52,541 nt of DNA from Candidatus Nealsonbacteria bacterium (GTDB lineage: Bacteria > Patescibacteriota > Minisyncoccia > Minisyncoccales > DAOVPY01). The position numbers were made by a program, and so were the translations under genes. How positions within the stretch are numbered: position 1 is the stretch's first letter; each line of letters starts with the position of its first letter. Positions 2,764-22,113 of this stretch are shown here, piece by piece. Location: positions 1 to 52,541 of the forward strand of contig DAOVPY010000005.1 in assembly GCA_030628945.1 (NCBI GenBank), written 5' to 3'. The notes beneath the pieces are model-generated. The model ran no database searches. It was not told where the DNA came from and was given only the letters and a program-made list of their open reading frames with translations.

Positions 2764-2822
2764 ACCCTGTTAAATGCCGCTTTGGCGGCAATTTTGGCAA
2801 AGCCAAAATTATTTAATAGGGT
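2764..2822. repeat. Family A palindromic element (two internal hairpins) in the rny 5' region
   Basis: ACCCTGTTAAA-TGCCGCTTTGGCGGCA-ATTTTGGCAAAGCCAAAATT-ATTTAATAGGGT. Confidence 0.9.
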
Positions 2823-2887
2823 GAAAATACCAAAATCTGAAATTGTTTTTACGTTTTAATTATAGCAAACTTCCTGGAAAAAGTAAA

Positions 2888-2914
2888 CCCCCGCGCCAAA
2901 ATTTGGCGCGGGGG
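2888..2914. repeat. GC-rich hairpin related to family C; possible terminator
   Basis: CCCCCGCGCCAAAATTTGGCGCGGGGG. Confidence 0.6.
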
Positions 2915-2945
2915 TAAAAAAATAAACTTAATCCATTATTGCACC

Positions 2946-3677
2946 TTAAAACTTAGCGCACACTGCTTTGTCCCAATCTGTGAGCGTGCAACTTCCGCTG
3001 ACCAGACCCCTTTGACAGGAGCCATCGGAGGGACGACATGCCCTACAGCTGCATGAGCACGATCCCTTCCAACCCAATGGTGTTATCCATCCAGTTACAG
3101 AACACGAGCATGAACATATACGTCCGTAAGAACCTGAATAATTCCACGTGCAGGAAGCATTCTCATGCAGCAGAACTGCCTCATACCCTGAAGGACAGGT
3201 AGGATTTGTCCCTCTAACTGTTATAACCTTTTCTTCTCCGCCAACATTAACAAATCTTGAATCGCAATCAGCGCAAGAACCAATTCCTGCTGAAGGCCAT
3301 GTTGTTTTTTTTACTCCGCCCAGGATAATTCCTTTGCTCACATTCAAATCGCCGGACATTGTGATATTGCCTGTGCTGCCGTCTATTTCCAAGGTAACCT
3401 TGTTGCTGCTGTTCTTTACAATCAGATTTCCGTGCGCGGAATATAAATCAGGGATGGCTCCTCCGACATTGATATCGTCTGTGTAAAAGGTTCTTAAACC
3501 TAAATCCCCGTCTTTGGCTTGATAATTTGTCCCCATATTTATTGGCGCAGATACATTACCTCCTGGCGGACCGACAGACGGCTCTGTCCAGGCAAGGACA
3601 ACGTAACCAAGTAAACAGGAAACTGCCAGAACGCCTAAACACAGAGGAATAATTTTGTATGAAATTTGCTTTGCCAT
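2946..3677 (-). CDS. Secreted/surface protein with Cys-rich C-terminus
   Basis: Hydrophobic N-terminus, AWTEPSVGPPGGNVSAPIN motif, many Cys in the C-terminal half. Confidence 0.7.
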   Translation of the reverse strand: MAKQISYKIIPLCLGVLAVSCLLGYVVLAWTEPSVGPPGGNVSAPINMGTNYQAKDGDLGLRTFYTDDINVGGAIPDLYSAHGNLIVKNSSNKVTLEIDGSTGNITMSGDLNVSKGIILGGVKKTTWPSAGIGSCADCDSRFVNVGGEEKVITVRGTNPTCPSGYEAVLLHENASCTWNYSGSYGRICSCSCSVTGWITPLGWKGSCSCSCRACRPSDGSCQRGLVSGSCTLTDWDKAVCAKF

Positions 3678-3745
3678 ATTACTTCATTATACCGCATTTC
3701 AAAATAAAAATCCCTATGGATAACCAAAAATCAAGCTGTTGCCGG

Positions 3746-4327
3746 CTATTTTGTCTTAATCACTTCGTCAATAATGCCGTATTCTTTTGCTTCCTCCGCA
3801 GACAAATAGAAATCCCGGTCCGTGTCTTTCTCCACTTTCTCAAACGCCTGTCCCGTATGTTTTGCTAAAATTCTGTTCAACTTCTCTTTTATCTTAACAA
3901 TCTGTTTCGCCGTAATCTCAATTTCCACGGCCTCGCCGGAAATTCCGCCGGCAACCTGGTGAAGCAAAACCTCGGCGTTGGGCAGGGCAAACCGCTTTTT
4001 TGGCGCGCCGGAAGCCAGTAAAGTGGCTCCCATTGAACCGGCCAAGCCGATACAAACCGTGGAAACCGGCGCTTTAATATACTGTATTGTGTCGTAAATC
4101 GCCAAACCGGCTGTTACCGAACCGCCGGGAGTATTAATATAAAGCTGAATATCTTTCTTGGGGTCAACGCTGGATAAAAACAAAAGCTGGGCAATAACAG
4201 AATTTGCCACAATATCAAGAATAGGCCCTGACAGAAAAACAATCCGCTCCTTTAAAAGCCGGGAATAAATGTCATACGCTCTTTCTCCGTATTGGGTTTT
4301 TTCTATAACTGTTGGAATTAAATTCAT
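3746..4327 (-). CDS. clpP: ATP-dependent Clp protease proteolytic subunit
   Basis: [29 protein letters not shown]. Confidence 0.97.
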
Positions 4328-4403
4328 AGTTGCTTTTTGATTAAAATTATGTTAAATATGTTTTAGACCTTTAATAAATTATAGAACAAAAAGGAGAGAA
4401 AAA

Positions 4404-4886
4404 ATGTTGCTGGAAATAATAGAAGGATTGTTGATAATGATATTTTTACACGCTTGGCCCGCGGTGATTTTTTGGGAAGAAAAAGGGGTTACTTTTGAGA
4501 TTGCTTTTTTTCTTTTAATTTCCTATTGGATTTTTTGGCTGTTTCTAATTTATTACGGACTGAACTATAGATTGATGAAAATTTCGCGAAAATGGCGGTC
4601 TCTGGAAATCTTTATCACCGCTACAAGACAAGAGGCAGATGAAATGATAAAAAATATTCCTGATTGGAGATTCCAAAAAAGATTAACCGATTGGCTGCTC
4701 TCAAAAGGGGAGACAATCACTTTGGCCCTTACTTTTATACCCTGGATTATTATCCTGCCGACTGCCACTATCATCGCGGCTCGGTTGATGAAAATTCCGC
4801 GCGCTTTTCCGGTTCTCTTTGCCGGAATTATTTTCAGGGCTTTTATTCTCTGTTTGACCGTTTATGGCTTTGGTATTTTACCATAA
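4404..4886 (+). CDS. Hypothetical membrane protein
   Basis: AGGAG RBS upstream, several hydrophobic segments. Confidence 0.65.
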   Translation: MLLEIIEGLLIMIFLHAWPAVIFWEEKGVTFEIAFFLLISYWIFWLFLIYYGLNYRLMKISRKWRSLEIFITATRQEADEMIKNIPDWRFQKRLTDWLLSKGETITLALTFIPWIIILPTATIIAARLMKIPRAFPVLFAGIIFRAFILCLTVYGFGILP

Positions 4887-4910
4887 CCTTGTTAAATTAT
4901 TTAACAGGGT
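4886..4910. repeat. Minimal family A element (arms only), supplies the nusA stop
   Basis: ACCTTGTTAAATTATTTAACAGGGT; nusA ends N-P-V-K-stop inside it. Confidence 0.8.
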
Positions 4911-6165
4911 TTTTCTTTCTTGGTTTTTTCTCTTTTTTTTCTTTTTTCTCTTTTTTCCCGGCTGTTTTCTTTTTTTCTTTTTCCTCTTCCTCTGCCTTTT
5001 CCGGACTTCTGATGTCAATCTTCCAGCCCGTGAGTTTTGCCGCTAAGCGGACATTTTGGCCTTCTTTGCCAATAGCCAAAGAAAGCTGGTCCTCGGGAAT
5101 AATAGCCATGGCTTTATTTTTGGGTTGAATTTTTACTTCTATTATCTTAGCCGGAGCCAAACTATTAGTAATATATTCCTCCGGGTTCTCGGACCATTCA
5201 ACAATGTCAATTTTTTCTCCCCCTAATTCCAGAATTACGGCCCCGACTCTGGTTCCTCTCTGTCCCACCATAGAACCAATGGGGTCCACGCCGTCAACCT
5301 CTGAACTCACTGCGATTTTAGAACGGGAACCTGCTTCTCTGGCAATGGATTTAATTTGAACCGAGCCGGCGGCAACTTCCGGGACTTCTAATTCAAAAAG
5401 TTTGGAAATTATTTTGGGATAAGCCCGGGACAAAAAAATCCTTGGGCCCTTTGGGGTTTCTTCCACTTTAATAATATAAACCTTAAGCCGCTCGCCCGGT
5501 TTATAAAACTCCCCGGGCACTTGCTCTTCTCTCGGCAAAATTCCTATGGTTCTGCCAATATCCATGAAAACCGCTCCGGATTCTATCCGCTGAACTATGC
5601 CAGAGATTATTTCCCCTTCTTTGGATTTGTACTCCTGATAAATAGTATTCCTTTCTTCTTCTCTAATCCTCTGCATTATTACTTGTTTGGCGGTCTGGGC
5701 GGCAATTCGGCCATAATCGCTTTTGGCCTCTAAAACCGTTTCCATCTCTTCTCCTGTTTTAATCTTGGGATTTATTTTTTTTGCGTCCTCAAGCATAATA
5801 TGCCTCTCAGAATTAAATCTTACCTTTGCCTCTTCTTCAACGCATGAAACCTCTTTAACAGAGGAAAACTCTTCTCGCCCGGGTCTCTTTCGCCCGGCTG
5901 TTGAAGGGACAAACTTCTCTTTCAAGGCCTCTAACTCCTCTTCGGAATAAATCATTGTTTCATCCACTACTAATTTTATCTGCCAAAATTTAATTTCGCC
6001 TGTTTTAGAATTAAATTTTGCTTTGATTTTCTGGCCTCTCAGCCCGTATTCTTTCTTGTAAGCCGCTGCAATTGCCTGCTCAATGGTTTCAATAACTTTT
6101 TCCGCGCTTATTCCTTTTTCCTCGGCAATCTGAGCGATTGCAGAAGTAAAATTCTTTAGATCCAT
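4897..6165 (-). CDS. nusA: Transcription termination/antitermination factor NusA
   Basis: GRIAAQTAKQVI, S1 and KH domains, AREAGSRSKIAV, LAIGKEGQNVRLAAKLTGWKIDI. Confidence 0.97.
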   Translation of the reverse strand: MDLKNFTSAIAQIAEEKGISAEKVIETIEQAIAAAYKKEYGLRGQKIKAKFNSKTGEIKFWQIKLVVDETMIYSEEELEALKEKFVPSTAGRKRPGREEFSSVKEVSCVEEEAKVRFNSERHIMLEDAKKINPKIKTGEEMETVLEAKSDYGRIAAQTAKQVIMQRIREEERNTIYQEYKSKEGEIISGIVQRIESGAVFMDIGRTIGILPREEQVPGEFYKPGERLKVYIIKVEETPKGPRIFLSRAYPKIISKLFELEVPEVAAGSVQIKSIAREAGSRSKIAVSSEVDGVDPIGSMVGQRGTRVGAVILELGGEKIDIVEWSENPEEYITNSLAPAKIIEVKIQPKNKAMAIIPEDQLSLAIGKEGQNVRLAAKLTGWKIDIRSPEKAEEEEKEKKKTAGKKEKKEKKEKKPRKKNPVK

Positions 6166-6177
6166 AAATGCCTTAAA

Positions 6178-6299
6178 TTTCTAATTTCTAATTTCTAATT
6201 TCTAATCAAATCCCAAATCCCAATTTCTAATGTCTAATTTTTTGGTCATTGGTTATTGGACATTGGGTATTGATTAGGTTAATTAGGTTAATTAGGTTA
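6178..6299. repeat. Compound 7-mer/9-mer tandem tract between rpsA and nusA
   Basis: (TTTCTAA)4 plus variants, TTGGTCA/TTGGTTA/TTGGACA/TTGGGTA, (ATTAGGTTA)3. Confidence 0.9.
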
Positions 6300-7550
6300 A
6301 TTAGACATTTTCATTTTGAGCGCTATTTTGTGGTTTTCCCGGTCAATCTGCAAAATTTGAAATTCATATTTTTTGCCGAGATTCAAGGCCTTTTTCATCT
6401 TTGCCTCGGTTCCAAATTCAGAAATATGAACCAAACCCTGAATTTCGGGAGTAAGCCGGACAAAAGCGCCAAAAGAATTAAATTTGGCCACTACTCCTTT
6501 TATTATATCGCCTTTTTTATATTTTTTTTCAATATGGTCCCAGGGATTCTTTTTTAACGCCCTTAAAGACAAGGAAATTCGGCTGTCGGCGATTTCAATG
6601 ATTTTCGCTTTTACTTTTTCGCCAATTTTTACAACCTTGCCCGGGTCGTCAATCATTCGCCAATCCAATTCAGAAATATGAATAAGCCCTTCCAGGATCG
6701 GAATGGTTGGCATCTCTTGGGCCCCGGCTTTTTTATCAAGCCCTGTGAGGTCTTTTGGGGGCGAAAACCTGATAAAAGCGCCGAAATCCACAATTCCGGT
6801 GATTTCTCCTTCCACTATAACGCCCGGCTTAAGGTTTTTAAATCCTTTTTTAAGCTCAAAGAGCTTCTGGGCTTTTTCTGATAAAATAAGTTTTTCTTGT
6901 TCCTGGTCAACGTCAAATATCTTAACTTCCAATTCTTTGCCAACAAGTTTTTGAAGTTCTCTGGCAATTTTAATCTTGTCTCCTTCGTCTACCCTGGGAT
7001 AATATTCAAAAGAAAGCTGAGAAACCGGCAAAAAACCGGAGATATTGGCTACTTTTGTCAAAAGCCCGCCCTTATTCGCTCCTAAAATTTTAACCGTAAT
7101 CTTCTCGTTCTTTTCTTTCTTTTTTCTCAACGTTTCCCAAGCCAGTTCTCGTTCGGCCTGCTTCACGGAAAGTTCAATATAGCCCTCTTCATTGTCCAAA
7201 TCCAAAACCTTGGCAAAAATCTCTTTCCCCAACTTTAAACTTTTGAGAAAATTTTTTGCTTCGTAAAATTCTCTGCCGTAAATAATTCCCGCGCCAATGG
7301 CTCCCAAATCAATAAAAATAGCCGACCCCTTTATTCCGATAATTCGGCCGCTCACTACATCGCCGAGCTTTGGAAAACCAAACAGATTATTTTGCTTTAC
7401 CCTGTTAAACAATTCCGCCTCTGGCGGAATTCCTTTGCTTTTAGCGGAGGGTTTAACAGGGTGAACCTTGTTAAACAATTCCGCTGCGGGCGGAATTTCT
7501 TTGCTTTTAGCGGAGGATTTAACAGGGTGAACATTTTTTTCCATAAGCAT
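6297..7550 (-). CDS. rpsA: 30S ribosomal protein S1 (four S1 domains) with a repeat-derived N-terminal extension
   Basis: Repeated FGAF...EGLIHISE motifs; two 22-aa repeats at the N-terminus. Confidence 0.9.
   Translation of the reverse strand: MLMEKNVHPVKSSAKSKEIPPAAELFNKVHPVKPSAKSKGIPPEAELFNRVKQNNLFGFPKLGDVVSGRIIGIKGSAIFIDLGAIGAGIIYGREFYEAKNFLKSLKLGKEIFAKVLDLDNEEGYIELSVKQAERELAWETLRKKKEKNEKITVKILGANKGGLLTKVANISGFLPVSQLSFEYYPRVDEGDKIKIARELQKLVGKELEVKIFDVDQEQEKLILSEKAQKLFELKKGFKNLKPGVIVEGEITGIVDFGAFIRFSPPKDLTGLDKKAGAQEMPTIPILEGLIHISELDWRMIDDPGKVVKIGEKVKAKIIEIADSRISLSLRALKKNPWDHIEKKYKKGDIIKGVVAKFNSFGAFVRLTPEIQGLVHISEFGTEAKMKKALNLGKKYEFQILQIDRENHKIALKMKMSN
7399..7528. repeat. Two tandem family A elements (64-bp cores, 66-bp period) in-frame in rpsA
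   Basis: 7399-7462 and 7465-7528; encode VHPVKSSAKSKEIPPAAELFNK and VHPVKPSAKSKGIPPEAELFNR. Confidence 0.92.
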
Positions 7551-7618
7551 AATAACTCTAACCTATCATAAATTGGAAAATTTGGCAATAGTTTTGGTTT
7601 ATGATAGAATGAGAAAAC

Positions 7619-8209
7619 ATGCGTATTACTTTGCATAACCAATCATTATTTCATATCACAACCCAGGATAAAAAAAATGGGTTAGTTAATATTATTATTG
7701 ACCCCTTTGCTCTAAAATCAAAAACCTCTAAATTAGAGGCGGATATTTTATTGCTCAGCCGGCAAAACGAAAAAGCCGTTGACATTAAATCCCTGTCCGG
7801 AAATCCATTCTTAATCAACGGGCCTGGCGAATACGAAATAAAGCAGGTCTTTATCCGGGGAATTTTTGCTAAAGACGAGGAAAACAAAGAAATCGCTATT
7901 TATACAATTGAGGCGGAAGACCTCAAATTATGCTATCTTGGCGGCTTTGACCAGAAAGAATTAATTGCTGAACAACTGGAAAAAATCGGCGATGTTGATA
8001 TTCTTATTATTCCCGTAATGGAAGCAAAAAGAATTATCAATCAGGTTGAGCCAAAAATAGTGATTCCAACACGCTGTAAATCCGCGAAAGAAATGGATAA
8101 ATTTCTAAAAACAATGGGTCTAAAATCAATTGAACCCCAGAACAAATTAGTCATTAAGAAAAAAGACCTGCCGCAAAAAATGGAAATAATTATCCTATCA
8201 GACCGATAA
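7619..8209 (+). CDS. MBL-fold (Lactamase_B_3-like) protein with degenerate metal motifs
   Basis: [33 protein letters not shown]. Confidence 0.75.
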
Positions 8210-8216
8210 GTCCTAT

Positions 8217-10709
8217 ATGCCTAAAAAATCTCAAAAAACAAACAAATCGGAAATCGGCTACATCAAGCCCAGGGAAATCACCGAGGAAATGAAAGAATCC
8301 TATATTGACTATGCTATGTCGGTGATTGTTTCCCGCGCCCTGCCCGATGTCCGCGACGGCTTGAAACCGGTCCACCGGAGAATTTTGTACACAATGCATG
8401 AAGACGGACTAATCCCGACGGCTAAATTCCGGAAATCCGCCTCGGTCACCGGAACAACACTCGCGAGGTACCATCCTCACGGCGACATCGCTGTATATGA
8501 TTCTCTGGTCCGCATGGCTCAGAATTTCTCTTTGCGATACCCTTTAATCAAGGGCCAGGGCAATTTCGGCTCAATTGACGGAGACCCGCCGGCCGCGCAA
8601 AGATACACAGAATGCAAACTCTCTAAAATCGGCGAGGAAACACTCAGAGACATCAGTAAAAATACTGTTAATTTTAAAGACAACTATGACAAAACAAGAA
8701 AAGAGCCGGTTGTCCTTCCTTCTCCCTTTCCCCAATTATTATTGAACGGAAGCTTGGGAATCGCGGTTGGTATGGCTACCAATATTCCTCCCCATAATTT
8801 GAGAGAGGTCTGCGACGCGGCTATTTATCTAATTGACAAACCCAAAGCAAATACCGAGGACCTCTTTCAGTTTATTAAAGGTCCGGACTTTCCGACAGGC
8901 GGCGAGATTTTTAACCAAAAAGAGATTATCGCTGCTTATTCGGTTGGCAAGGGACCCATAGTAACCAGAGGCAAAACCGAGGTAGTTGAAACAAAAACCG
9001 ACAAAAGACAAATCCTTATCACGGAAATTCCTTATCAAACCCAGAAGTCGGGGCTGGTAGAACAACTCGCCCGTCTGGTGCAGGAGAAAAAAATTATTGG
9101 CATTAAAGACATCAGGGACGAATCAGATAAAGACGGAATGCGAATTGCCATTGACCTCCAAAAAGACGCTTATCCTCAAAAAATCCTTAATCGCTTGTAT
9201 AAATTTACCGACCTTCAAAAAACTTTTCACCTCAATACCCTTGCTTTGGTGGACGGAATCCAGCCCCGGGTTTTATCTCTTGCCGAACTTTTGAGTTATT
9301 ATCTTTCTCACCGGCAAGAAGTTATCCGGCGGAGAACGAAATACGATTTAGAAAAAAACAAACAACGGGCGCATATTTTAAAAGGACTGCGAATATGCCT
9401 GGTAAAAATTGACGCGGTTATTAAAACCATTAAAAATTCCGCTAACAGGGAAGAAGCGCTGAAAAATTTAATCAAGCGATTCAAACTTACTCAAATCCAG
9501 GCAAACGCTATTCTGGAAACAAAACTTTCTGCCTTGGCTCAACTGGAAAGAAAAAAAATAGAGCAAGAACTCAAAGAAACTCTTGTCCGCATTAAAGAGC
9601 TCTCATTACTTTTAAAAAATCCTCAAAAAATAAAAGCGGTAATAAAAAAAGAGCTGAGCGACTTAAAACAAAAATTCGGGGATGAAAGAAAAACAAAAAT
9701 CCATATTCAAAAAATTGGAGAAATCTCCGAACAAGACCTGATTCCTCAGGAAGAAACCATTATCACCTTAACCAGGGGGGGATATATAAAACGGCTCAAT
9801 CCCGCAATCTATAAAAAACAAAAACGGGGCGGCAAGGGCCTGCTGGGTATGAAAACCATAGGCGAAGACATTGTGGAGCATTTTCTTGCCGCGCGCACTC
9901 ATGACAACTTGTTGTTTTTTACCGACTCCGGCAAGGTCTTTCAGGCGCCGGTTTATGAAATACCGGAAGCAAGCCGCGTCGCCAAGGGCAGGGGTCTTCT
10001 TAATTTCTTGGAAATTTCTTCCGAGGAAAAGGTTCTCGCGCTGATACCGTTAAGCAGGGACGACAAATCTCTGGGGAAAAACTATTTAGTAATGGCCACT
10101 AACAATGGTATAATAAAGAAAACCGTTTTGGAAGAATTTAAAAATGTGCGGCGAACAGGGCTGATTGCCATAAATCTCAAAAAACAAGATTTGCTGAAAA
10201 GCGTTAAATCCGCCAAGGAAGGCGATGAAATAATTTTAGCGACTAAAAAAGGACAGTCAATTCGGTTTGATGAAAAGGCGCTCAGGCCAATGGGAAGAAG
10301 CGCCGCCGGCAATATAGGAATACGGCTGAAAAAAGAAGACAAGGTAATCGGAATGGACATCATCTCTCTTCCTTTTCAAAAAAAGGAAGAGGGACAAAAA
10401 TTAGAAAAAAATTATTTATTGGTGGTGGCGGAAAATGGGTATGGGAAGAGAAGTGATTTGAAAGAGTATCGGGTTCAGGGCAGGGGAGGAACCGGAATTA
10501 AAACTGCCCGGATTGTTTCTAAAACCGGAAACTTGGTTGCTTCGCGGATTTTAAAAAAGGAAGAAGAAGATTTAATCGTTATTTCCCGCAAAGGCCAGGT
10601 TATCAGGCTGAAGCTCGCGTCTGTCCCGAAATTAGGAAGAGCAACCCAGGGAGTAAGAATTATGCGGCTGGACCCGGGAGACAAGGTAGCGTCTATCGCG
10701 TGCATCTAA
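8217..10709 (+). CDS. gyrA: DNA gyrase subunit A
   Basis: [29 protein letters not shown], GyrA box QKRGGKG. Confidence 0.98.
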
Positions 10710-10727
10710 CGAAATTTTATAATTTAT

Positions 10728-11705: not shown

Positions 11706-11763
11706 ACCCTGTTAAATAATTTCGTCTTTGGCGAAATTGCCGCAAAGCGGCATTTAACAGGGT
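11706..11763. repeat. Family A element, intergenic between the two pilin-like genes
   Basis: ACCCTGTTAAATAATTTCGTCTTTGGCGAAATTGCCGCAAAGCGGCATTTAACAGGGT; 56/58 identical to the tsaD copy. Confidence 0.92.
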
Positions 11764-15476: not shown

Positions 15477-15478
15477 TT

Positions 15479-15532: not shown

Positions 15533-15545
15533 TTTTTCGTCTATT

Positions 15546-16007: not shown

Positions 16008-16020
16008 AATATTGATAAAA

Positions 16021-16089
16021 TTTCTAATTTCTAATTTCTAATTTCTAATTGAAAATTAAAGAATTGAAAATTCATTGAAAATTGAAAAT
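16021..16089. repeat. 7-mer tandem tract
   Basis: (TTTCTAA)4 followed by TTGAAAA units. Confidence 0.85.
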
Positions 16090-16805
16090 TATTTAAGCTG
16101 GCAGGTACTTTTTATTGTTTTCAAATTCTTGAAACCGTAAGAGACAAAAAGAGCCAGCGAGATTAAGATGATAATCGGTATTGCGAATTTTAATCCTCCC
16201 TCTACTCTCATTATAGAAAAATCATACAATCCATGCAAGAACACGGCTATCCCCAGCCCAATCATTGTGAGCCGAATTCGCTTTTTCGTTTCAAAAAAAG
16301 AAAGAGCTAAAAAATAACCCAGCGCGCCCGAACAAAGAGCGTGCAAAAAGGTTGCTCCGATAAACCGCGAAGCGCAGAGCAAAGAGGTCTCAAGAAAGAG
16401 AAACGGAGAACTCCAAGGAAATAAAACCAAAATATTCTCCAGGGCGGCGAAACCCAAAGCTACAATAATCATATAAAGCATCACGTCTGACGGCTCATCA
16501 AACTCTGAATTCATTATTACCTTGCCTTTTATCACTAAATATTTAAAAATTTCTTCCACAAAAGCCACGCCTAAAAACCAATATAAAATTGAAACGAGTA
16601 GCGGCGAAAAATAAAGAGGCAATTTATTCAGCTCTCCTAAAATTCCTAATTCTATCAAGGCGACCGGCATAGTAATTAATATCCCCCAAAAAAAGATTTT
16701 CAAAATCATCCAGTTTGATTCTGGATGCGCGTCCTTGCGGAGATAGAATAAAAGCCAGATAGCGCTCGGGATAACCCCGGAAATAACATAAATTAAGTAG
16801 GCCAT
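16089..16805 (-). CDS. prsW: PrsW family intramembrane metalloprotease
   Basis: VEEIFK, GFAALEN, HALCSG, LHGLYD. Confidence 0.9.
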   Translation of the reverse strand: MAYLIYVISGVIPSAIWLLFYLRKDAHPESNWMILKIFFWGILITMPVALIELGILGELNKLPLYFSPLLVSILYWFLGVAFVEEIFKYLVIKGKVIMNSEFDEPSDVMLYMIIVALGFAALENILVLFPWSSPFLFLETSLLCASRFIGATFLHALCSGALGYFLALSFFETKKRIRLTMIGLGIAVFLHGLYDFSIMRVEGGLKFAIPIIILISLALFVSYGFKNLKTIKSTCQLK

Positions 16806-16812
16806 TATCTAT

Positions 16813-16854
16813 AGTTTTTAGTTTTTAGTTTTTAGTTTTTAGTTTTTAGTTTTT
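16813..16854. repeat. (AGTTTTT)6 tract supplying the valS stop codon
   Basis: Six perfect 7-mers. Confidence 0.9.
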
Positions 16855-18933
16855 CAAAACCGGCCAATCTTCAACCATTAAACATTTCTTTTTGTTTTTT
16901 ACTGGTAATTTTTGATAGATTTCTTCGGTAATAAACGGCATAAACGGGTGTAAAAGTTCCAAGGAGCTGAGAAGAACATAAAAAAGAATTTTTTGGGTTT
17001 CTTTGCTATCCTGCTTTTTCGTTTCTTCAATGTAGACATCGCAGAAATCGCGCCAAAAAAAACCATAAAGTTCTCGCGCTACTCGGCCAAATTGAAATTT
17101 TTCCAAATCCTTATCCACTGACTTGATTGTTTTGTCTAACGCCTTCAAAATTTTCTTATCAGCGTTAGTCAAGTTTTGAGTTTTAAGTTGTGGCTTTGCG
17201 CTTTGCGCTTTGCGCTTTGCGCTCTCGGTTTGTCCCAAGACAAACCGAGAGGCGTTCCACACTTTATTGCAAAACTTCTTTCCCATCTTGATATTGTCTT
17301 CCACAAACCGAATATCCTGGCTACCGGTCGCCTGCCAGATTATTCCAAATCGTGTAGCGTCTGTCCCATATTTTTCAATGAGATCTATCGGATCTATGCC
17401 CGTGCCCAATGATTTTGACATTCTTTTTCCTTCCTTATTCAATACCGTGGCGTGGATATAAACATCTTGAAACGGTTCTTTTTTCATAAATTCCGCGCCG
17501 GAAAAAATCATTCTCCCCACCCAAAGATTAATAATATCCCTGGCAGTGCTTAAAACATTAGTAGGATAAAAGGTTTTCAAATCTTTTGTTTTTTTGGGCC
17601 AGCCAAGACAGGCAAACGGCCAAAGCGCTGACGAAAACCAGGTATCCAAAACATCTATCTCGCCTTTTAAGGGAATTCTGTGCCCCCACCAGATTTGGCG
17701 AGAAATACACCAATCCCTCACATTCTTTAACCATTTAAAATAAACTTTTTCCCATTTTTTCGGATGAAATCTTACTTTATTGGTTTTTACCGCTTTAATC
17801 GCTAATTTTGCCAATTTATCCGTTTTCAAAAACCATTGCTGAGAAGGAATTAATTCCAAAGTTTTTCCGCATCTGTAGCATTTAGGAATTTGATGGATAT
17901 AATCTTCAATTTTCTCCATAAAACCGAGATTTTCCAAATCCTGGATTATTTTTTCCCGGGCGTCTGTTACTTTTAATCCCTGATATGTCCGGGGCGCTTG
18001 TTCATTTAATCTGCCTGTTTCGTCTATCACCTGAATACTTTTTAATCCTTGCCGCAAACTGATTTCATAATCAGTCAGGTCGTGGCTGGGAGTCACCTTT
18101 ACCGCGCCTGTCCCGAATTTCGGGTCTACTATCCGGTCGGCAATAATGGGAATTTCTCGGCGCGATAATGGTAAAACAACTTTCTGCCCAACTAATTTTT
18201 TATATCTTTTATCATTTGGATTTACAGCCACCGCTGTATCGCCGAGCATGGTTTCGGGCCGTGTTGTCGCCACCACAATATAGGTTTTAGTTTTCAGGTG
18301 ATAGGTTTTAGATAAAGGATAACGAATATACCACAAATGCCCTTTTTCTTCCTTATATTCTATTTCTAAATCAGACAAGCTTGTTCGGCATCTCACACAC
18401 CAGTTAACCACTCTCTTCCCTCTATAAATCCAGTGTTTTTTGTAATAATATAAAAATGCCTTTTTTACCGCTTCTGTATATTCTTTGTCTAAAGTAAATC
18501 TGGTTCTTGACCAATCACAGGAACTTCCCATTTTTTTAAGCTGGTCCAGGATAATATTTCCGTATTTTTCTTTCCATTCCCAAATTTTTTCAATAAATTT
18601 TTCCCTGCCAAGGTCAAAACGGGTCAAGCCCTGTTTTTTTAGTTCTTTTTCAACGACATATTGAGCCACGATTCCGGCGTGGTCAATACCCGGAACCAAA
18701 AGCGTTTTGTATCCCTGAAGCCGTTTCCAGCGAATTAAAATGTCCTGAATTGTGGCGTTTAAGGCGTGCCCCATATGAAGCGCGCCTGTAATATTGGGAA
18801 GGGGAATAACAATACAATAGGGTTTTTTATGCCGTTTTGGAAGTTTATCAGGATTAAAATAACCGCTTTTTTCCCAAAAGCGATAAATTCTGTTTTCAAC
18901 TTGTTTTGGATTGTAAGTTTTAGATAATTCCAT
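16846..18933 (-). CDS. valS: Valine--tRNA ligase, lacking the C-terminal coiled coil
   Basis: HMGH, ATTRPETMLGD, DWCISRQIWWGH, DTWFSSALWP, RMSKS. Confidence 0.97.
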   Translation of the reverse strand: MELSKTYNPKQVENRIYRFWEKSGYFNPDKLPKRHKKPYCIVIPLPNITGALHMGHALNATIQDILIRWKRLQGYKTLLVPGIDHAGIVAQYVVEKELKKQGLTRFDLGREKFIEKIWEWKEKYGNIILDQLKKMGSSCDWSRTRFTLDKEYTEAVKKAFLYYYKKHWIYRGKRVVNWCVRCRTSLSDLEIEYKEEKGHLWYIRYPLSKTYHLKTKTYIVVATTRPETMLGDTAVAVNPNDKRYKKLVGQKVVLPLSRREIPIIADRIVDPKFGTGAVKVTPSHDLTDYEISLRQGLKSIQVIDETGRLNEQAPRTYQGLKVTDAREKIIQDLENLGFMEKIEDYIHQIPKCYRCGKTLELIPSQQWFLKTDKLAKLAIKAVKTNKVRFHPKKWEKVYFKWLKNVRDWCISRQIWWGHRIPLKGEIDVLDTWFSSALWPFACLGWPKKTKDLKTFYPTNVLSTARDIINLWVGRMIFSGAEFMKKEPFQDVYIHATVLNKEGKRMSKSLGTGIDPIDLIEKYGTDATRFGIIWQATGSQDIRFVEDNIKMGKKFCNKVWNASRFVLGQTESAKRKAQSAKPQLKTQNLTNADKKILKALDKTIKSVDKDLEKFQFGRVARELYGFFWRDFCDVYIEETKKQDSKETQKILFYVLLSSLELLHPFMPFITEEIYQKLPVKNKKKCLMVEDWPVLKN

Positions 18934-20020
18934 CTATTCTTAGATTAGCATCAACTTCAATATCTTTCCAGTTTTTAATTTTTTTGCGATGAAAACAAGC
19001 CGTAACGCCGACCATGGCGGCGTTATCAGTGCAAAACCTGGAATAAGGAATCAAAAATAAGGAATCAGGAATTTCTTTTTTAATTCTTTGCTGAAATTGC
19101 TTTTGCAATTCCTTGTTTGCGGTAACGCCACCGCCAAGGATAATTGTCCTCGCCCCATAATCTCGGGCGGCTTTTATGGTTTTTTTAAGCAAAACATCAA
19201 TTACTGCCTGTTGGATTTCAACGCACATCTCCCGAATATATTTTATATTTTTCGCTTTTCGCTTTTCGCTTTTCACTTTATACAAGACCGCTGTTTTCAG
19301 CCCTGAAAAACTAAAATCATAGTCCTTGGAATACATCATAGGTCTGGGAAGCTTTGCCCTGTTAAATAATTTCGCCTTTGGCGAAATTGCCGCAAAGCGG
19401 CATTTAACAGGGTGAATTTGAAATTTCCATTGCCGAGCCTGCTCGGCAATGGCCGGTCCGCCGGGGTATTCTAATCCTAAAATCCGGGCCGCCTTGTCCA
19501 GACACTCGCCCGCGGCGTCATCCCGGGTTTCGCCTAAAATTTTGTATTTGCCAATCCCTCGCATTAAAATCAATTGCGTGTGCCCGCCAGAAACAACCAA
19601 ACAAACCGCTGGAAATAAATAGTTTGTAGTTTGTAGTTTGTAGTTTGTAGTTAAAAAATTAACGAGGATATGCGCCTCAATGTGATTTACTGGAATTATT
19701 GGCAAATTTCTTTGACGAGATAATTTTTTGGCGAAATTTACCCCTGTCCACAAACACGGCTCCAATCCGGGACCATTGGTTACAGCAATCGCGTCAATTT
19801 TGGGATTCCGGGCTTGTTTTAGCGCTTTCTTGAAAACAATCGGCAGATTTTTCTGATGTTCTCTTTTTGCCAAAAAAGGATAAATCCCTCCGTATTTAGC
19901 ATGAAGTTTTACCTGCGAAGAAATCACATTCGCTAAAATTCTAAAATTTAACTTCTTATCTCTCTCAACCACGGCAACGCAGGTATCATCGCATGATGTT
20001 TCAATAGCTAGAATTTTCAT
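18920..20020 (-). CDS. tsaD: tRNA N6-adenosine threonylcarbamoyltransferase TsaD
   Basis: ILAIETSCDD, NHIEAH, VSGGHT, DDAAGE, FSFSGLKT, TDNAAM. Confidence 0.97.
   Translation of the reverse strand: MKILAIETSCDDTCVAVVERDKKLNFRILANVISSQVKLHAKYGGIYPFLAKREHQKNLPIVFKKALKQARNPKIDAIAVTNGPGLEPCLWTGVNFAKKLSRQRNLPIIPVNHIEAHILVNFLTTNYKLQTTNYLFPAVCLVVSGGHTQLILMRGIGKYKILGETRDDAAGECLDKAARILGLEYPGGPAIAEQARQWKFQIHPVKCRFAAISPKAKLFNRAKLPRPMMYSKDYDFSFSGLKTAVLYKVKSEKRKAKNIKYIREMCVEIQQAVIDVLLKKTIKAARDYGARTIILGGGVTANKELQKQFQQRIKKEIPDSLFLIPYSRFCTDNAAMVGVTACFHRKKIKNWKDIEVDANLRIDGII
19356..19413. repeat. Family A element in-frame in tsaD
   Basis: Encodes (I)HPVKCRFAAISPKAKLFNR(A) just before LPRPM. Confidence 0.92.
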
Positions 20021-20115
20021 TGCTGTCATTTTACCATTTAAGTTGCTTTTCTTCAATTTTTCCTCTATAATAACAAATAATCAACGATTAGTGATTAATG
20101 ATAAATGATTATTTT

Positions 20116-20187
20116 GACCCCATCGTCTAGTGGTCAGGACATCAGGTTTTCATCCTGAAAACCGGGGTTCGACTCCCCGTGGGGTCG
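20116..20187 (+). tRNA. tRNA-Glu(TTC)
   Basis: TCAGG-TTTTCAT-CCTGA anticodon arm, GGTTCGACTCC. Confidence 0.95.
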
Positions 20188-20192
20188 CTACA

Positions 20193-21789
20193 ATGGAGAA
20201 ATACTATCTCAAAATTGGCAAGGCGTCTGATTTAAAAAACGCGAAAGACAGGGCGCTTTTTAGATTTTTGGAAATTTTTCCCGGGGCCCTCAGCTGGGGA
20301 ACCTTAATCGGACTTGTTATTCTCTCCTGGCTGAAACCGTGTTTTACCGCTGTTTTTATTATTTTTTTTTGTTCTTTACTGGCTGTTCAGGACAATTTAT
20401 TTTTCTTTTCTTCTTCGCGCCGGGTATAAAAAAATGAGGGAGCATGAAAAAACTGATTGGCTGGAGAAATTAAATCAATTATCCTCGCATACTGCGGAAC
20501 AAGCAGTAATCAGCAACCAATTAGGAATTAAAAACTGGCAAGAAATTTATCACTTAATTATTCTGCCGATGTATAAAGAACCTCTGGAAATCGTTCAAGA
20601 GACATTTCAAAACCTTGTAAAAACTGATTATCCCAAGGACAAAATGATTGTTATTCTGGCTCTTGAGGAAAAAGCCGGCAGACAAGCTCAAAAAACAGCC
20701 AGACAAATAGAGAAAAAATTTGGAAGCAAATTCTTCAAATTCTTAATTACTATTCATCCTTGTAATTTAACAGGAGAAATCATGGGCAAGGGTTCAAATG
20801 ACGCATGGGCTTCAAGAAAAGGCAAAGAAATTATTGATAAAATGTCTATTCCTTACGAACGAATTATTGTTTCTTCTTTTGATATAGACACAATTCTCTC
20901 TCCAAAATATTTTAGCTGCCTTACTTATCATTATTTAACCGCGGCAAAACCTTTGCGAAGCAGTTTTCAACCAATCCCGATTTTTTTAAACAATATCTGG
21001 GAAGCTCCTTCGGTCTCCCGGATTTTTTCTTTTTCTTCAACTTTTTGGCAAATGACATGCCAGGAAAGATTAGAAAAACTTCGTACTTTCTCTTCTCATT
21101 CCATGAGCTTCAATGCCCTTGTTGAGGTTGATTTCCGTCAGACCAATGTTGTTTCTGACGATTCAAGAATCTTCTGGCAAAGCTTTTTGAAATATGACGG
21201 GGATTATAGAACCATCCCTTTGTATTATCCTGTTTCTATGGACGCCAATGTCGCCCCAAGCCTTTGGAAAACCCTAAAAAACGTTTATAAACAGCAAAGA
21301 AGATGGGCTTACGGGGTAGAAAATGTTACTTATCTTTTATTTGGATTTTTCAAGAATAAAAAAATTTCTCTGGCTAAAAAAATTTATTTTGGAGCCGTCA
21401 CATTAGAGGGCTACTGGTCCTGGTCAACGAATTCCTTTATTATATTTTTATTGGGCTGGCTGCCTTTGATATTGGGAGGCCAGGAATTTACCCAGACACT
21501 TCTCGCTTATAATCTGCCCATCTTTGTCAGAACTGTTTTATTTATGGCAATGTTCGGTTTAATTAGTTCGGCCGGTTTAAGTATTCTTTTGCTTTCTCCT
21601 CATTCCATAAAGGTTAAACTTACGAAAAGAAAATATTTGCTCTTTGGGCTGGAATGGCTGCTTTTGCCTGTTGTTATGATAACTTTTACGGCCCTGCCGG
21701 CGTTAGAGGCTCAAACCAGATGGATGCTCGGCAAATATATGGGCTTCTGGCCCACTGAAAAAATCCGCAAAAAAAACTCGCAATTATGA
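20193..21789 (+). pseudogene. GT2-family membrane glycosyltransferase split by a frameshift at a T9 tract
   Basis: Removing one T at 20362-20370 joins MEKYY... to the 20434 ORF; FDID, SDD and QQRRW motifs. Confidence 0.75.
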
Positions 21790-21795
21790 TTTTCC

Positions 21796-22113
21796 ATGGA
21801 ATTTTCAATTGACAAATCGCAAGAAAACATTTACTCTTTAATGAGAAGAGCGGGATATGTTTCGGTTGAAAGAAAAAGCCAGTTTAGTTTTATTCGCAGA
21901 ATTGGAACAACGGATTATCCGCGATTTCATATTTATTTAACAGATGAAAAAACATCAAATAAGATAATTTTAAACTTGCATCTTGACCAGAAAAAACCGA
22001 GATACTCAGGCGTACGAGCCCACAGCGCTGAATATGATGGCAGAGTAGTGAAAAAAGAAGCAGAAAGAATTAAAACCTTGTTAAATAGTGCCAAAGGCAA
22101 TTTAACAGGGTAG
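21796..22113 (+). CDS. Hypothetical protein
   Basis: YPRFHIY, LHLDQK, HSAEYDG; C-terminus supplied by a family A element. Confidence 0.75.
   Translation: MEFSIDKSQENIYSLMRRAGYVSVERKSQFSFIRRIGTTDYPRFHIYLTDEKTSNKIILNLHLDQKKPRYSGVRAHSAEYDGRVVKKEAERIKTLLNSAKGNLTG
22075..22111. repeat. Family A element with one internal hairpin
   Basis: ACCTTGTTAAATAGTGCCAAAGGCAATTTAACAGGGT. Confidence 0.85.

What the first reader, a model, noticed from the sequence alone, without database searches (positions are those of the whole stretch)
2764..22111. Family A: dispersed Y-shaped palindromic element that enters housekeeping proteins in-frame
Seen: seven copies bounded by ACC(C/T)TGTTAAA...TTTAA(C/T)AGGGT arms at 2764-2822, 4886-4910, 7399-7462, 7465-7528, 11706-11763, 19356-19413 and 22075-22111, with degenerate remnants at 23561, 44989 and 48212. 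The arms enclose 0, 1 or 2 short hairpins. The larger hairpin shows compensatory changes (AATTTCGCC-AAA-GGCGAAATT, AATTTTGGC-AAA-GCCAAAATT, AATTCCGCC-AGA-GGCGGAATT), so structure is conserved over sequence. Copies lie in a 5' UTR, between genes, at gene ends and in-frame in S1 and TsaD. Known analogues: Rickettsia palindromic elements, REP/REPIN and MITEs. Inference: a non-autonomous mobile element mobilised in trans that generates new protein loops. No transposase is in this window and I cannot confirm novelty.
Basis: partly seen in the sequence, partly recalled or inferred. Interest (0 to 1): 0.9.

Follow-up and report, generated by a model that had tools for sequence, protein, structure and literature searches.

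The report
Y-shaped mobile palindrome inside essential genes
A tiny hairpin-forming mobile DNA element has multiplied in this ultra-small bacterial genome and sits, still readable, inside housekeeping genes, where it adds short extra loops to their proteins.

Summary
All seven copies lie at the stated coordinates, and the arm motif is about five times over chance.

- **Anatomy:** an invariant 12-bp closing stem (ACCCTGTTAAAT / ATTTAACAGGGT) encloses 0, 1 or 2 hairpins. The hairpin sequences vary but stay paired: 11 of 14 hairpin pairs show double changes.
- **Copy number and placement:** the 825-kb genome holds about 30 copies. Seven are in-frame inside TsaD, MetRS, LigA, a GatA-type amidase, a GT4 glycosyltransferase, acetyl-CoA synthetase and a PMT_2 protein. 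Nine lie in N-terminal regions (S1 twice, FtsZ, RpoD, S9, L23 and others). Six supply stop codons (NusA, FtsH, PilM and others).
- **Spread:** exact-arm copies occur in 54 of 401 sampled genomes of the same order and 9 of 401 of the phylum. They also occur in Omnitrophota, WOR-3, Desulfobacterota and Bacteroidota records.
- **Mobility:** three filled-versus-empty orthologous sites show that the unit is the core plus 2 nt. It enters between TTT and A, in one polarity, with no target duplication.

This is a Rickettsia-palindromic-element-like phenomenon in CPR bacteria, but its insertion footprint looks IS200/REP-like. The mobilising enzyme is not identified. RAYT-like HUH proteins are the best candidate, and the evidence for them is circumstantial. 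I found no description in print.

The parts
2764..2822 (+). Copy 1: 59-nt core with two hairpins. It lies 30 nt upstream of the start of the RNase Y gene (1193-2734, minus strand), so in its 5' leader. Flanks are TTT...GAA on the + strand.
4886..4910 (.). Copy 2: 25-nt arms-only copy between the convergent ORF 4404-4886 (+) and NusA 4897-6165 (-). NusA reads into it and ends ...NPVK-stop inside the element. A T-run follows it on the + strand.
7399..7528 (+). Copies 3 and 4: two tandem 64-nt cores joined by the dinucleotide GA (7463-7464). On the minus strand they are read in frame as codons 8-51 of ribosomal protein S1 (6297-7550, minus): HPVK..LFNKV and HPVK..LFNRV.
   Evidence: 12 of 12 orthologues align only from query residue 46-56. 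Contigs of three runs bridge the tandem with no differences (table 8).
11706..11763 (-). Copy 5: 58-nt core, intergenic between two T4SS-pilin-family genes (11206-11637 and 11775-12089). Flanks are TTC...AAA on the + strand, so the polar form lies on the minus strand.
19356..19413 (+). Copy 6: 58-nt core inside TsaD (18920-20056, minus). With 2 further bases it makes 20 extra codons, HPVKCRFAAISPKAKLFNRA, between ..KFQI and KLPRPM.
   Evidence: In the AlphaFold2 model the only segment with pLDDT below 50 is residues 207-223, which is the insert.
22075..22111 (.). Copy 7: 37-nt core with one hairpin. ORF 21796-22113 ends in it, and it stands 4 nt before a tRNA gene (22115-22185).
44988..45010 (.). 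Probable collapsed remnant: the outer part of a left arm directly followed by a right arm with one mismatch.
48212..48232 (.). Possible remnant: a short hairpin made of the outer arm bases only, followed by GAA.
44493..44504 (.). Lone exact right arm without a left partner. It could be a half-deleted copy. Relatives of other genomes also keep right-arm-only remnants at orthologous sites.

Best explanation
This is a family of very small, non-autonomous mobile DNA elements.

**Anatomy.** A sequence-invariant 12-bp stem (ACCCTGTTAAAT paired with ATTTAACAGGGT) closes a variable interior. The interior is usually two unrelated hairpins, so a single strand folds into a three-way junction ('Y').

**Insertion.** The unit that moves is the core plus two bases at one end, usually GA. 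It is inserted in one polarity between TTT and A. It makes no target-site duplication.

**Why it survives inside genes.** In this genome most cores have a length of 1 modulo 3, so the unit is a multiple of three. One reading frame through the arms is open: [H/Y/N]PVK ... FNR[V/A]. Insertions at codon boundaries therefore survive as 13-24-residue loops or N-terminal extensions. The opposite interior orientation reads PVK-stop and survives only at gene ends.

**Decay.** Copies decay by internal deletion and leave half-arms.

**What is shown and what is inferred.**
- Shown: the anatomy, the in-frame copies, the filled/empty sites and the insertion footprint.
- Inferred: the element moves as folded single-stranded DNA, by an HUH (Y1) transposase of the IS200/RAYT kind supplied in trans. 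My odds for this enzyme step are about 0.35-0.4.
- Inferred: identical arms in several phyla reflect recognition by that enzyme plus horizontal spread.
For: **Enrichment and census**
- 19 arm hits in the window against 3.5 expected.
- 30 curated copies in the 825,478-base genome.
- The peptide pattern [HY]PVK.{5,16}[LF]FN[RK] is found 14 times in six-frame translations and 0 times in reversed ones.

**Structure**
- Counted on 25 copies of 58 nt from this and other genomes.
- The arm helix is invariant.
- All 5 pairs of hairpin 1 and 6 of 9 pairs of hairpin 2 change on both sides.
- 97.5% of cells are paired. 0 of 500 shuffles reach the covariation score, and slid registers fall to 35-46% paired.

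**In-frame copies**
- TsaD alignment.
- S1 orthologues.
- Pfam places copies between or inside the domains of MetRS, LigA, an amidase, GT4 and ACS.
- TsaD model: mean pLDDT 88.7, and the only segment below 50 is the insert.

**Mobility and footprint**
- One genome's copy at 230540-230597 is absent from a sister species with 93-95% identical flanks.
- A 61-nt copy in a pilin leader is absent from two sister species.
- A 61-nt in-frame copy is absent from three sister species.
- In all three, the filled site minus the empty site equals core + 2 nt. The left flank is TTT, the right flank starts with A, and there is no duplication.
- Flanks across 125 copies in other genomes: T at -3 in 101 and at -2 in 99; A at +2 in 98 and at +3 in 100.
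- 72 of 177 copies read exactly TTT..GAA once oriented.
- 26 of 30 cores in this genome have a length of 1 modulo 3.

**Spread**
- 54 of 401 genomes of the order and 9 of 401 of the phylum hold exact-arm copies. The reversed-pattern control gave 0 in every genome.
- At least 118 stretches were found in named records of several phyla, some on contigs of 4-5 Mb.

**Enzyme**
- Y1_Tnp: 5 of 5 element-rich genomes, several copies each, and 5 of 5 carriers from other phyla against 6 of 14 control genomes.
- Other families in the five rich genomes: TnpB 0 of 5, DDE_Tnp_1 0 of 5, rve 1 of 5.
- Homologues of the resident RAYT-like protein P0003 occur in 40 of 54 element-positive and 176 of 347 element-negative genomes (odds ratio 2.8, p 0.002).
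Against: **The enzyme link is weak.**
- 14 of 54 element-positive genomes have no P0003-like hit, among them three with 4 or more copies (G043, G286, G364). Half of the negative genomes have one.
- Related genomes are not independent, so the p-value overstates the case.
- 3 of 5 element-negative genomes also carry Y1_Tnp.
- None of 18 RAYT-like loci holds a copy within 1.5 kb.
- P0003-like genes are flanked by a different hairpin, with variable stems and a loop close to ACCCGAC.
- The second RAYT-like clade (P0004) shows no association: 5 of its 29 carriers are element-positive.
- P0003 scores 42 bits against the NCBIfam REP-transposase model, whose cut-off is 80.

**The anatomy is not typical of IS200/IS605 ends.** Perfect terminal inverted arms are unusual there.

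**Not every comparison was clean.**
- Two of the five further filled/empty comparisons showed 67 nt against 12 nt, and a 103-nt larger insert.
- In two others the relatives keep a right-arm remnant. Some 'empty' sites may therefore be deletions. The clean 60-nt case has a 3-nt microhomology that would also fit slippage deletion.

**Other caveats.**
- No RNA or protein data show that the in-frame copies are translated.
- The compensatory changes could arise without selection, by hairpin-templated correction in palindromes.
Confidence: 0.75

Rival explanations
1. It is a classical MITE: a deletion derivative of a DDE-type insertion sequence. The 12-bp arms would be terminal inverted repeats bound by that transposase, and the element would move by cut-and-paste.
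For: The terminal inverted repeats are perfect and invariant. The element is small, has many copies and carries no coding capacity.
Against: None of the three clean filled/empty pairs has a target-site duplication, and the inserted unit is asymmetric, core + 2 nt on one side. In the five richest genomes DDE_Tnp_1 was found in 0 of 5 and rve in 1 of 5. No long element bounded by the same arms was seen in this genome. Only two DDE Pfam families were searched, so other DDE families are not excluded.
Confidence: 0.07
2. It is a recombination site module used by a tyrosine recombinase (Xer-like or integron-like). The folded stem would present a core-type site, as in integron attC sites or the folded attP of filamentous phages.
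For: The arms contain GTTAAAT and ATTTAAC, which fit the attC core words GTTRRRY and RYYYAAC. The inner 8 bases resemble the outer part of the XerD arm of dif. Both the words and the dif sequence are recalled, not from a call. Attachment sites with variable sequence and conserved structure are the attC hallmark. All 5 rich genomes carry 1-3 Phage_integrase genes.
Against: The two words stand in the opposite order to attC: GTT... comes first and ...AAC last on both strands, as the sequence shows directly. Copies are dispersed singly at many sites that share only TTT^A. They are not in cassette arrays next to an integrase. One to three tyrosine recombinases per genome is what any bacterium has for chromosome resolution.
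Confidence: 0.07
3. It is mainly a functional structured motif (RNA or DNA) kept by selection, such as a terminator, an mRNA-stability or leader element, or a protein-binding site. It would then be more than selfish DNA.
For: The arms are invariant across phyla and the hairpins covary. About 12 copies in other CPR records sit inside a larger conserved leader 20-180 nt (most 41-67 nt) upstream of diverse start codons. Copy 1 lies in the RNase Y leader. The 25-nt copy is followed by a T-run between convergent genes.
Against: Copies lie in frame inside essential enzymes, where such a function makes little sense. Presence and absence differ between sister species at orthologous sites. Distribution is patchy, 13% of the order. 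No Rfam family matches, even below threshold. The typical flanks TTT..GAA do not give a terminator T-run. A secondary, co-opted role for some copies is not excluded.
Confidence: 0.08
4. It is a chance pattern or an assembly artefact.
For: Short-read contigs of three runs break at several copies.
Against: 0 of 100 shuffles reach the observed count. The reversed-pattern control gave 0 in 401 + 401 genomes. The same element occurs in many independent assemblies, including complete chromosomes. Contigs of three runs bridge the tandem S1 copies without differences.
Confidence: 0.01

Closest known systems
Rickettsia palindromic elements (RPE)
   Same: Both are short palindromic repeats with no coding capacity of their own. 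Both are found many times in frame inside unrelated housekeeping genes of a reduced genome, where they add tolerated peptide segments. No transposase is identified for either. I read passages of the review PMC10969869: about 150 bp, ten families, 44 insertions in R. conorii genes.
   Different: These cores are 25-70 nt and fold as a three-way junction with an invariant closing stem and free interior. They occur in CPR bacteria and several other phyla, not in one genus. Here the insertion footprint could be read: TTT^A, core + 2 nt, no duplication. Sequence likeness to RPE consensus sequences could not be tested, because none was at hand.
REP / REPIN elements with RAYT transposases
   Same: Both are hairpin-forming repeats in high copy number. 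RAYT-like HUH proteins are present in the genome. There is no target duplication. The abstracts seen in the search listing (PMC3337134, PMC3116915, bioRxiv 2022.05.22.493013) define REPINs as two inverted REPs replicated by a single-copy RAYT and mostly vertically inherited.
   Different: This element is not extragenic. Its two hairpins are unrelated sequences, not two inverted copies of one REP. It does not flank the RAYT-like genes (0 of 18 loci). The RAYT-like genes are multi-copy. The distribution is patchy and crosses phyla, which points to horizontal spread.
IS200/IS605-family insertion sequences and their miniature derivatives (PATEs)
   Same: Both insert in one polarity next to a short fixed target word, without duplication, and both depend on hairpins. 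The Y1 HUH transposase family is the only transposase family found in all five rich genomes. The IS608 target TTAC and the single-strand 'peel and paste' mechanism are recalled, not from a call.
   Different: IS200/IS605 ends are asymmetric subterminal hairpins without terminal inverted repeats. Here a perfect 12-bp inverted stem is the conserved part and the hairpins are free to vary. No full-length parent with these ends was found, and TnpB was found in 0 of 5 genomes.
Integron attC sites
   Same: Both are single-strand-folding sites in which structure is conserved and sequence varies, with short core words of the GTTRRRY/RYYYAAC type (recalled).
   Different: The core words stand in the opposite order. 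There are no cassette arrays and no neighbouring integron integrase. Copies lie inside genes.

Membership tests
Rickettsia palindromic elements | Sequence belongs to one of the described RPE consensus families | not testable with these tools
   No RPE sequences or models were available. Rfam has no match for the element.
Rickettsia palindromic elements | In-frame insertion into unrelated housekeeping genes with an open frame through the element | tested here: met
   Seven internal in-frame copies and nine in N-terminal regions in this genome.
REP/REPIN-RAYT | The unit is two inverted copies of one REP sequence | tested here: not met
   The two hairpins differ in sequence and length (5-bp and 8-9-bp stems). 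Only the outer arms are inverted copies.
REP/REPIN-RAYT | Copies flank the cognate RAYT gene | tested here: not met
   0 of 18 RAYT-like loci hold a copy within about 1.5 kb. Other hairpins flank these genes.
REP/REPIN-RAYT | A RAYT (REP-associated Y1 transposase) is encoded in the genome | tested here: inconclusive
   Pfam Y1_Tnp scores over its cut-off at three places in this genome. The NCBIfam REP_Tyr_transpos model gives 42 and 20 bits against a cut-off of 80.
REP/REPIN-RAYT | Extragenic location | tested here: not met
   22 of 30 copies overlap open frames of recognisable genes or end them.
IS200/IS605-derived miniature elements | No target-site duplication; polar insertion next to a fixed short word | tested here: met
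   Three filled/empty pairs show TTT^A, core + 2 nt on one side, and no duplication.
IS200/IS605-derived miniature elements | Ends match those of a full-length family member with tnpA (and tnpB) in the same genome | tested here: not met
   No long element with these arms. TnpB in 0 of 5 genomes. The flanks of RAYT-like genes differ.
IS200/IS605-derived miniature elements | No terminal inverted repeats | tested here: not met
   The arms are perfect 12-bp inverted repeats.
DDE-type MITE | Terminal inverted repeats plus a direct target-site duplication | tested here: not met
   Inverted repeats are present, but none of the three clean pairs has a duplication.
Integron attC | RYYYAAC at the 5' end and GTTRRRY at the 3' end; arrays beside intI | tested here: not met
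   The sequence reads GTTAAAT ... ATTTAAC on both strands. Copies are dispersed singly.

The most novel reading that the evidence does not exclude
This would be a previously undescribed, cross-phylum class of single-strand-mobilised three-way-junction element. Only the 12-bp closing stem and a 2-nt tail are fixed, and the interior is free. In ultra-small CPR genomes it would act as a routine source of new loops, N-terminal extensions and stop codons in essential proteins, including ribosomal proteins, tRNA-modification and aminoacylation enzymes, DNA ligase and pilin leaders. Its insertion footprint is readable (TTT^A, no duplication). That would make the long-open question of how RPE-like in-frame elements move directly testable with a defined substrate and a short list of candidate HUH enzymes.
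Probability: 0.35. Interest if true: 0.85.

Novelty: new variant of a known kind. Interest (0 to 1): 0.72.

Why it matters
In-frame 'selfish DNA inside proteins' has been known mainly from Rickettsia, and its mechanism is still unknown. Four points make this case worth attention.
- The same phenomenon appears in an unrelated, very large and poorly understood radiation of bacteria. About half of the copies in one 825-kb genome touch coding sequence.
- The insertion site and the exact inserted unit can be read from natural filled and empty sites.
- The element explains part of the odd extra segments seen in CPR housekeeping proteins.
- It breaks short-read contigs, and the extra in-frame segments may mislead gene callers and alignments.

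The pilin case suggests how such insertions can be harmless. There the insert re-creates the G|FTLL leader-cleavage motif, so it could be removed with the leader.

Tried and rejected
**Searches and checks that led nowhere**
- **Rfam.** Gathering threshold on the window. E-value threshold on four loci. Gathering threshold on 15 loci. No family fits; only far sub-threshold microRNA models touch the palindrome.
- **Short-peptide search.** The 44-residue S1 tandem peptide was searched against the 5.8-billion-protein set with lengths 'longer'. Only two proteins of this same genome came back. The word index is unsuited to such a short query.
- **Sequencing runs.** Three DNA holders, all from one study. 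No RNA holder was listed.
- **Laying contigs.** Contigs break at copies. One variant contig skips 19327-19437 around the TsaD copy with 'between: not known', so it shows neither an empty nor a filled site.
- **Phage, plasmid and viral collections.** No match in phages or plasmids. Three stretches in 2.9 million viral contigs.

**Ideas rejected or left open**
- **Integron attC and Xer/dif idea.** Rejected on the order of the core words and on the dispersed, non-arrayed placement.
- **P0004 clade as mobiliser.** No association: 5 of its 29 carriers are element-positive.
- **RAYT genes flanked by the element.** None in 18 loci.
- **Co-transfer of RAYT with the element into Omnitrophota.** The proteins there are only 30-35% identical to P0003.
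- **Composite context as rRNA spacers.** Not so.
- **Length-modulo-3 rule as a general property.** It holds in this genome (26 of 30) but not in other genomes.
- **Fixed hairpin order relative to the polar ends.** Not constant: 11 of 14 in this genome, and mixed elsewhere.

**Rows dropped**
- From the 37 raw regex matches I kept 30. I dropped seven rows with 2+2 arm mismatches and no hairpins (C3 37684, C3 171976, C6 4586, C12 23911, C13 26879, C13 38042, C17 159124). I also trimmed rows that ran into a neighbouring copy.
- For the covariation count I used 25 of the 67 oriented copies. These were the copies of exactly 58 nt with the common two-hairpin register.
- The threshold for 'strong' P0003 hits was chosen after seeing the data.

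**Limit on the literature claim**
- Supplementary files of papers were not consulted. They might list repeat families of CPR genomes.

Full report

Yes. The arm motif ACCYTGTTAAA, with up to one mismatch, occurs 19 times in the 52.5-kb window. The mean over 100 dinucleotide-preserving shuffles is 3.5, the largest is 8, and none reaches 19.

The window is contig C9 of a 17-contig, 825,478-base genome. That genome is scored 100% complete with 0.5% contamination. Three things point to a CPR/Patescibacteria bacterium, and this is my inference:
- the small genome;
- pilins of Pfam family PF18895;
- most named public records that hold the same element are labelled Patescibacteria or Parcubacteria.

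**2. Anatomy**

Every copy is closed by the same stem, ACCCTGTTAAAT at the left and ATTTAACAGGGT at the right. Between the arms lies a variable interior (folds):
- almost nothing in the 25-nt copy at 4886;
- one small hairpin in the 37-nt copies;
- two different hairpins in the 46-70-nt copies, of which 58 nt is the commonest.

I aligned 25 distinct 58-nt copies from this genome and from other genomes without gaps and counted pairs for the three-helix structure.
- The 12-pair arm helix is essentially invariant: 9 pairs never vary.
- All 5 pairs of the small hairpin change on both sides.
- 6 of 9 pairs of the large hairpin change on both sides.
- 97.5% of cells are standard pairs.
- 0 of 500 column shuffles reach the observed covariation score. 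Sliding the partner by 1-3 columns drops pairing to 35-46%.

One caveat applies. In DNA palindromes a mutation on one side can be copied to the other by hairpin-templated repair, so double changes need not mean selection.

**3. Census and coding context in this genome**

A fuzzy arm search gave 37 raw matches, of which I kept 30 as true copies. The dropped rows are listed under Tried and rejected. One more overlapping tandem copy and one partial copy were seen.

Core lengths are 25 (1 copy), 37 (5), 46 (1), 54 (1), 58 (13), 59 (1), 63 (1), 64 (4), 68 (1) and 70 (2). Twenty-six of the 30 have a length of 1 modulo 3.

Reading all six frames and scanning hosts against Pfam sorts the 30 copies into four groups.
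- **Seven lie in frame with recognisable protein on both sides:**
  - TsaD;
  - methionyl-tRNA synthetase, between the catalytic and anticodon domains;
  - NAD-dependent DNA ligase, between the HhH and BRCT domains;
  - a GatA-type amidase, inside the domain;
  - a GT4 glycosyltransferase, inside the domain;
  - acetyl-CoA synthetase, a 37-nt copy inside the N-terminal domain;
  - a PMT_2-family membrane protein.
- **Nine lie in frame in N-terminal regions, where the true start codon is uncertain:**
  - S1 (two copies), FtsZ, RpoD, ribosomal proteins S9 and L23, an M24 peptidase, a 1508-residue ORF and a 207-residue pilin-like ORF.
- **Six end an open frame:** NusA, FtsH and PilM all end ...PVK-stop.
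- **Eight are intergenic or unclear.**

The frame logic follows directly from the sequence. One frame through the arms reads [H/Y/N]PVK ... FNR[V/A]. With the small hairpin first, this frame stays open through the interior. With the large hairpin first, it reads PVK and then TAA.

**4. Are the in-frame copies true insertions?**

- **TsaD.** The 20 residues HPVKCRFAAISPKAKLFNRA sit between ..KFQI and KLPRPM. In all 19 orthologue rows from relatives of the same order this place is a short variable loop, often ending ..KFEI just before KLPRPM, and none has the insert.
- **TsaD structure.** An AlphaFold2 model built from 17 aligned sequences has mean pLDDT 88.7. Its only segment below 50 is residues 207-223, which is the insert. 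This fits a tolerated, disordered surface loop. It is a prediction, not a measurement.
- **S1.** All 12 orthologues searched align only from query residues 46-56 onward, just after the two tandem copies at codons 8-51. No alternative start codon lies between the copies and the first S1 domain. The copies are therefore most likely translated as an N-terminal extension.
- **Assembly support.** Contigs from three public runs of one study bridge the S1 tandem without differences (table 8).

**5. Distribution**

- **Same order.** Exact-arm copies were found in 54 of 401 sampled genomes (G000 included), scattered over many families. The one same-family relative has none. A reversed-pattern control gave 0 in every genome. 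This genome has the most copies of the 401.
- **Same phylum.** In an even sample, 9 of 401 genomes have a match.
- **All species genomes.**
  - Most records are Patescibacteria groups.
  - Others are labelled Omnitrophota, WOR-3, Cloacimonadota, Desulfobacterota, Bacteroidota, Gammaproteobacteria and Stahlbacteria.
  - Some hits are on contigs of 4-5 Mb, so they are not mis-binned CPR fragments.
- **Coding context elsewhere.** In those loci 95 of 127 copies are intergenic, 11 are internal in frame, 17 lie at gene ends and 4 lie at N-termini. The heavy coding load is a feature of this genome. In-frame copies do occur elsewhere, however.
- **Identical copies across groups.** Identical or one-base-different 58-nt copies, hairpins included, occur in different families. 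I read this as horizontal spread (inference).
- **WOR-3 and Stahlbacteria records.** There the same arms enclose a roughly 40-nt interior that does not read as a hairpin (not folded).

**6. Mobility and insertion footprint**

Species of the same genus gave orthologous filled and empty sites. Three comparisons were clean.
- **(i)** A 58-nt copy is absent from a sister species whose flanks are 93-95% identical, and is present with arm mismatches in another.
- **(ii)** A 61-nt copy inside a pilin leader is absent from two sister species.
- **(iii)** A 61-nt in-frame copy is absent from three sister species.

In all three the filled site equals the empty site plus the core plus two bases on one side (GA, TC, GA). 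The left flank is TTT, the native right flank begins with A, and nothing is duplicated. A model with one extra base on each side mispredicts the empty site by one base in the first two cases.

Other evidence agrees with this footprint.
- The TsaD insert is 60 nt, which is 58 + 2.
- The S1 tandem has GA between its two cores.
- Across 125 copies from other genomes, T stands at -3 in 101 and at -2 in 99, and A stands at +2 in 98 and at +3 in 100.
- 72 of 177 copies read exactly TTT..GAA once oriented. The orientation rule uses these same bases, so that figure is partly circular.

In case (ii) the insert lands in GGA TTT^ACT, the codons of the G-F-T of a prepilin cleavage motif. It re-creates GFTLL at its far end. 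A 37-nt copy in this genome sits in the same kind of site.

Not all comparisons were clean.
- One site showed 67 nt against an unrelated 12 nt.
- One copy lies inside a larger 103-nt insert.
- At two sites the relatives keep only a right-arm remnant, which shows decay by internal deletion.
- Case (i) has a 3-nt microhomology that would also allow a slippage deletion, so the direction of change is not proven for every pair.

**7. What moves it?**

A polar insertion next to a short fixed word without duplication is the footprint of single-strand HUH (Y1) transposition in the IS200/IS605 and REP/RAYT world. That background is recalled, not from a call.

Transposase families in the five richest genomes:

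| Family | Genomes with a match |
|---|---|
| Y1_Tnp | 5 of 5, 1-4 matches each (three or more in four genomes) |
| TnpB | 0 of 5 |
| DDE_Tnp_1 | 0 of 5 |
| rve | 1 of 5 |
| Large serine recombinases | 3 of 5 |
| Tyrosine recombinases | 5 of 5, 1-3 each |

- Five carriers from other phyla all have Y1_Tnp, against 6 of 14 control genomes.
- This genome has three Y1_Tnp places. They include an intact 245-residue protein (P0003) with an HUH-like H-L-H and a YIHTNP motif.
- P0003-like genes occur in 40 of 54 element-positive and 176 of 347 element-negative genomes of the order (odds ratio 2.8, Fisher p 0.002). Of the 16 genomes with the strongest hits, 8 are positive. That threshold was chosen after seeing the data, and related genomes are not independent.

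Against the link:
- 14 positive genomes lack such a gene.
- 3 of 5 negative genomes have Y1_Tnp.
- None of 18 RAYT-like loci holds a copy nearby.
- P0003-type genes are flanked by a different hairpin, with variable stems and a loop close to ACCCGAC.
- The P0004 clade shows no association.

One suggestive detail remains. P0004 and its 70%-identical orthologue in another family are each bracketed by the hairpin GTTTAAGGT-nnn-ACCTTAAAC. That hairpin closely resembles the arm-GA-arm junction that a circularised or tandem Y unit would form.

I therefore hold the enzyme step at about 0.35-0.4. The general statement that this is a mobile, non-autonomous palindromic element I hold at about 0.85-0.9.

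**8. Comparison with what is known, and novelty**

- **RPE.** In effect this is the CPR counterpart of Rickettsia palindromic elements. The 2024 MITE review, of which I read passages, describes RPEs of about 150 bp in ten families with 44 in-frame insertions in R. conorii. It contains no mention of Patescibacteria or candidate phyla.
- **IS200/REP-type elements.** In footprint this element resembles them, but it fails several defining features of REPINs and of IS200/IS605 derivatives (see the membership test).
- **DDE MITEs.** It fails the duplication test.
- **Searches for a prior description.**
  - 'Palindromic element' with Patescibacteria gave 0 papers.
  - Candidate phyla radiation with palindromic, in-frame and insertion gave 3 papers holding all four terms; the 2 listed are unrelated.
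  - The arm words themselves gave only unrelated primers.
  - RAYT or REPIN with CPR terms: none of the listed papers holds either word.
  - MITE with Patescibacteria gave 2 unrelated papers.
  - 'Extragenic palindromic' with candidate phyla radiation gave 1 paper, with one passing mention of each (seen as a listing only).
  - Subscription journals and supplementary files were not covered.
- **Rating.** A new variant of a known kind.

**9. Main uncertainties**

- Translation of the in-frame copies is inferred from open frames and gene integrity, not observed.
- The mobilising enzyme is unknown.
- Exact-arm searches undercount diverged copies. One sister species had a filled site that the pattern missed.
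- The direction of change, insertion or deletion, is not established for every filled/empty pair.

Noticed in passing
G000 contig C12 33104-34021 (locus L152/L226); also L227: A second small hairpin family, GTTTAAGGT-nnn-ACCTTAAAC, has 6 copies genome-wide. It brackets a RAYT-like gene (P0004) on both sides. The 70%-identical orthologue in a genome of another family is bracketed in the same way. The unit looks like an IS200-like or REP-RAYT unit, and its stem resembles the arm-GA-arm junction of tandem Y copies.
   Followed up: partly
G000 contig C5 about 29212 and 29520-29547 (locus L153/L168); loci L170-L179: P0003-type RAYT-like genes in several genomes are flanked by hairpins with variable stems and a conserved loop close to ACCCGAC. 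In this genome there are only two such hairpins, and one of them lies in frame inside the RAYT-like gene itself, read as HRGRVSVL.
   Followed up: partly
Loci L029, L051, L066, L085, L093, L105, L112, L113, L116, L124, L142, L143: In about a dozen CPR records the Y element is nested in a larger conserved, partly self-complementary leader. The leader lies 20-180 nt (most 41-67 nt) upstream of the start codons of unrelated genes (SerRS-like, QueA-like, S15 and others). Some carry a TATAGT/TATAAT-like box. It may be a composite mobile promoter or leader. A second recurrent context occurs in L072, L084, L088 and L091.
   Followed up: partly
Alignment A2 columns 101-160 and 215-235; window 4897-6165: TsaD orthologues of this order carry other large variable inserts, 40-60 residues after the first subdomain and others in single genomes. 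NusA here has about 50 extra residues inside the NusA_N domain (residues 6-173 for a 119-position model). Other insert families may exist.
   Followed up: no
L188 3456-3516 (G144) and G000 contig C15 7502-7538: Copies are inserted exactly at the G|FTLL(E) prepilin cleavage motif of pilin genes. The insert re-creates GFTLL at its far end, so it could be removed with the leader peptide.
   Followed up: partly
Loci L046, L059, L073, L090, L098, L104, L107: In WOR-3 and Stahlbacteria records the same 12-bp arms enclose a roughly 40-nt AT-rich interior with no evident hairpins (read by eye, not folded). The flanks are recurrent (ctgcg..., ...atctgc), and one contig has three copies within 1.7 kb.
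   Followed up: no
window 4886-4922: The 25-nt arms-only copy is a perfect hairpin followed by a T-run on the + strand, between convergent genes. It could double as an intrinsic terminator for ORF 4404-4886.
   Followed up: no
G000 contig C5 about 31255-31313 (L168 3435-3493): Another palindromic repeat is built on CAGGGGTC(A/T)GACCCCTG, with an arm-like ...ACCCCTGTTA end, 1.2 kb downstream of the P0003 gene.
   Followed up: no
window 2500-22400: Short-read contigs of three public runs end or branch at several copies, for example at 11755, 22109 and 19416. The element fragments assemblies of this organism.
   Followed up: no
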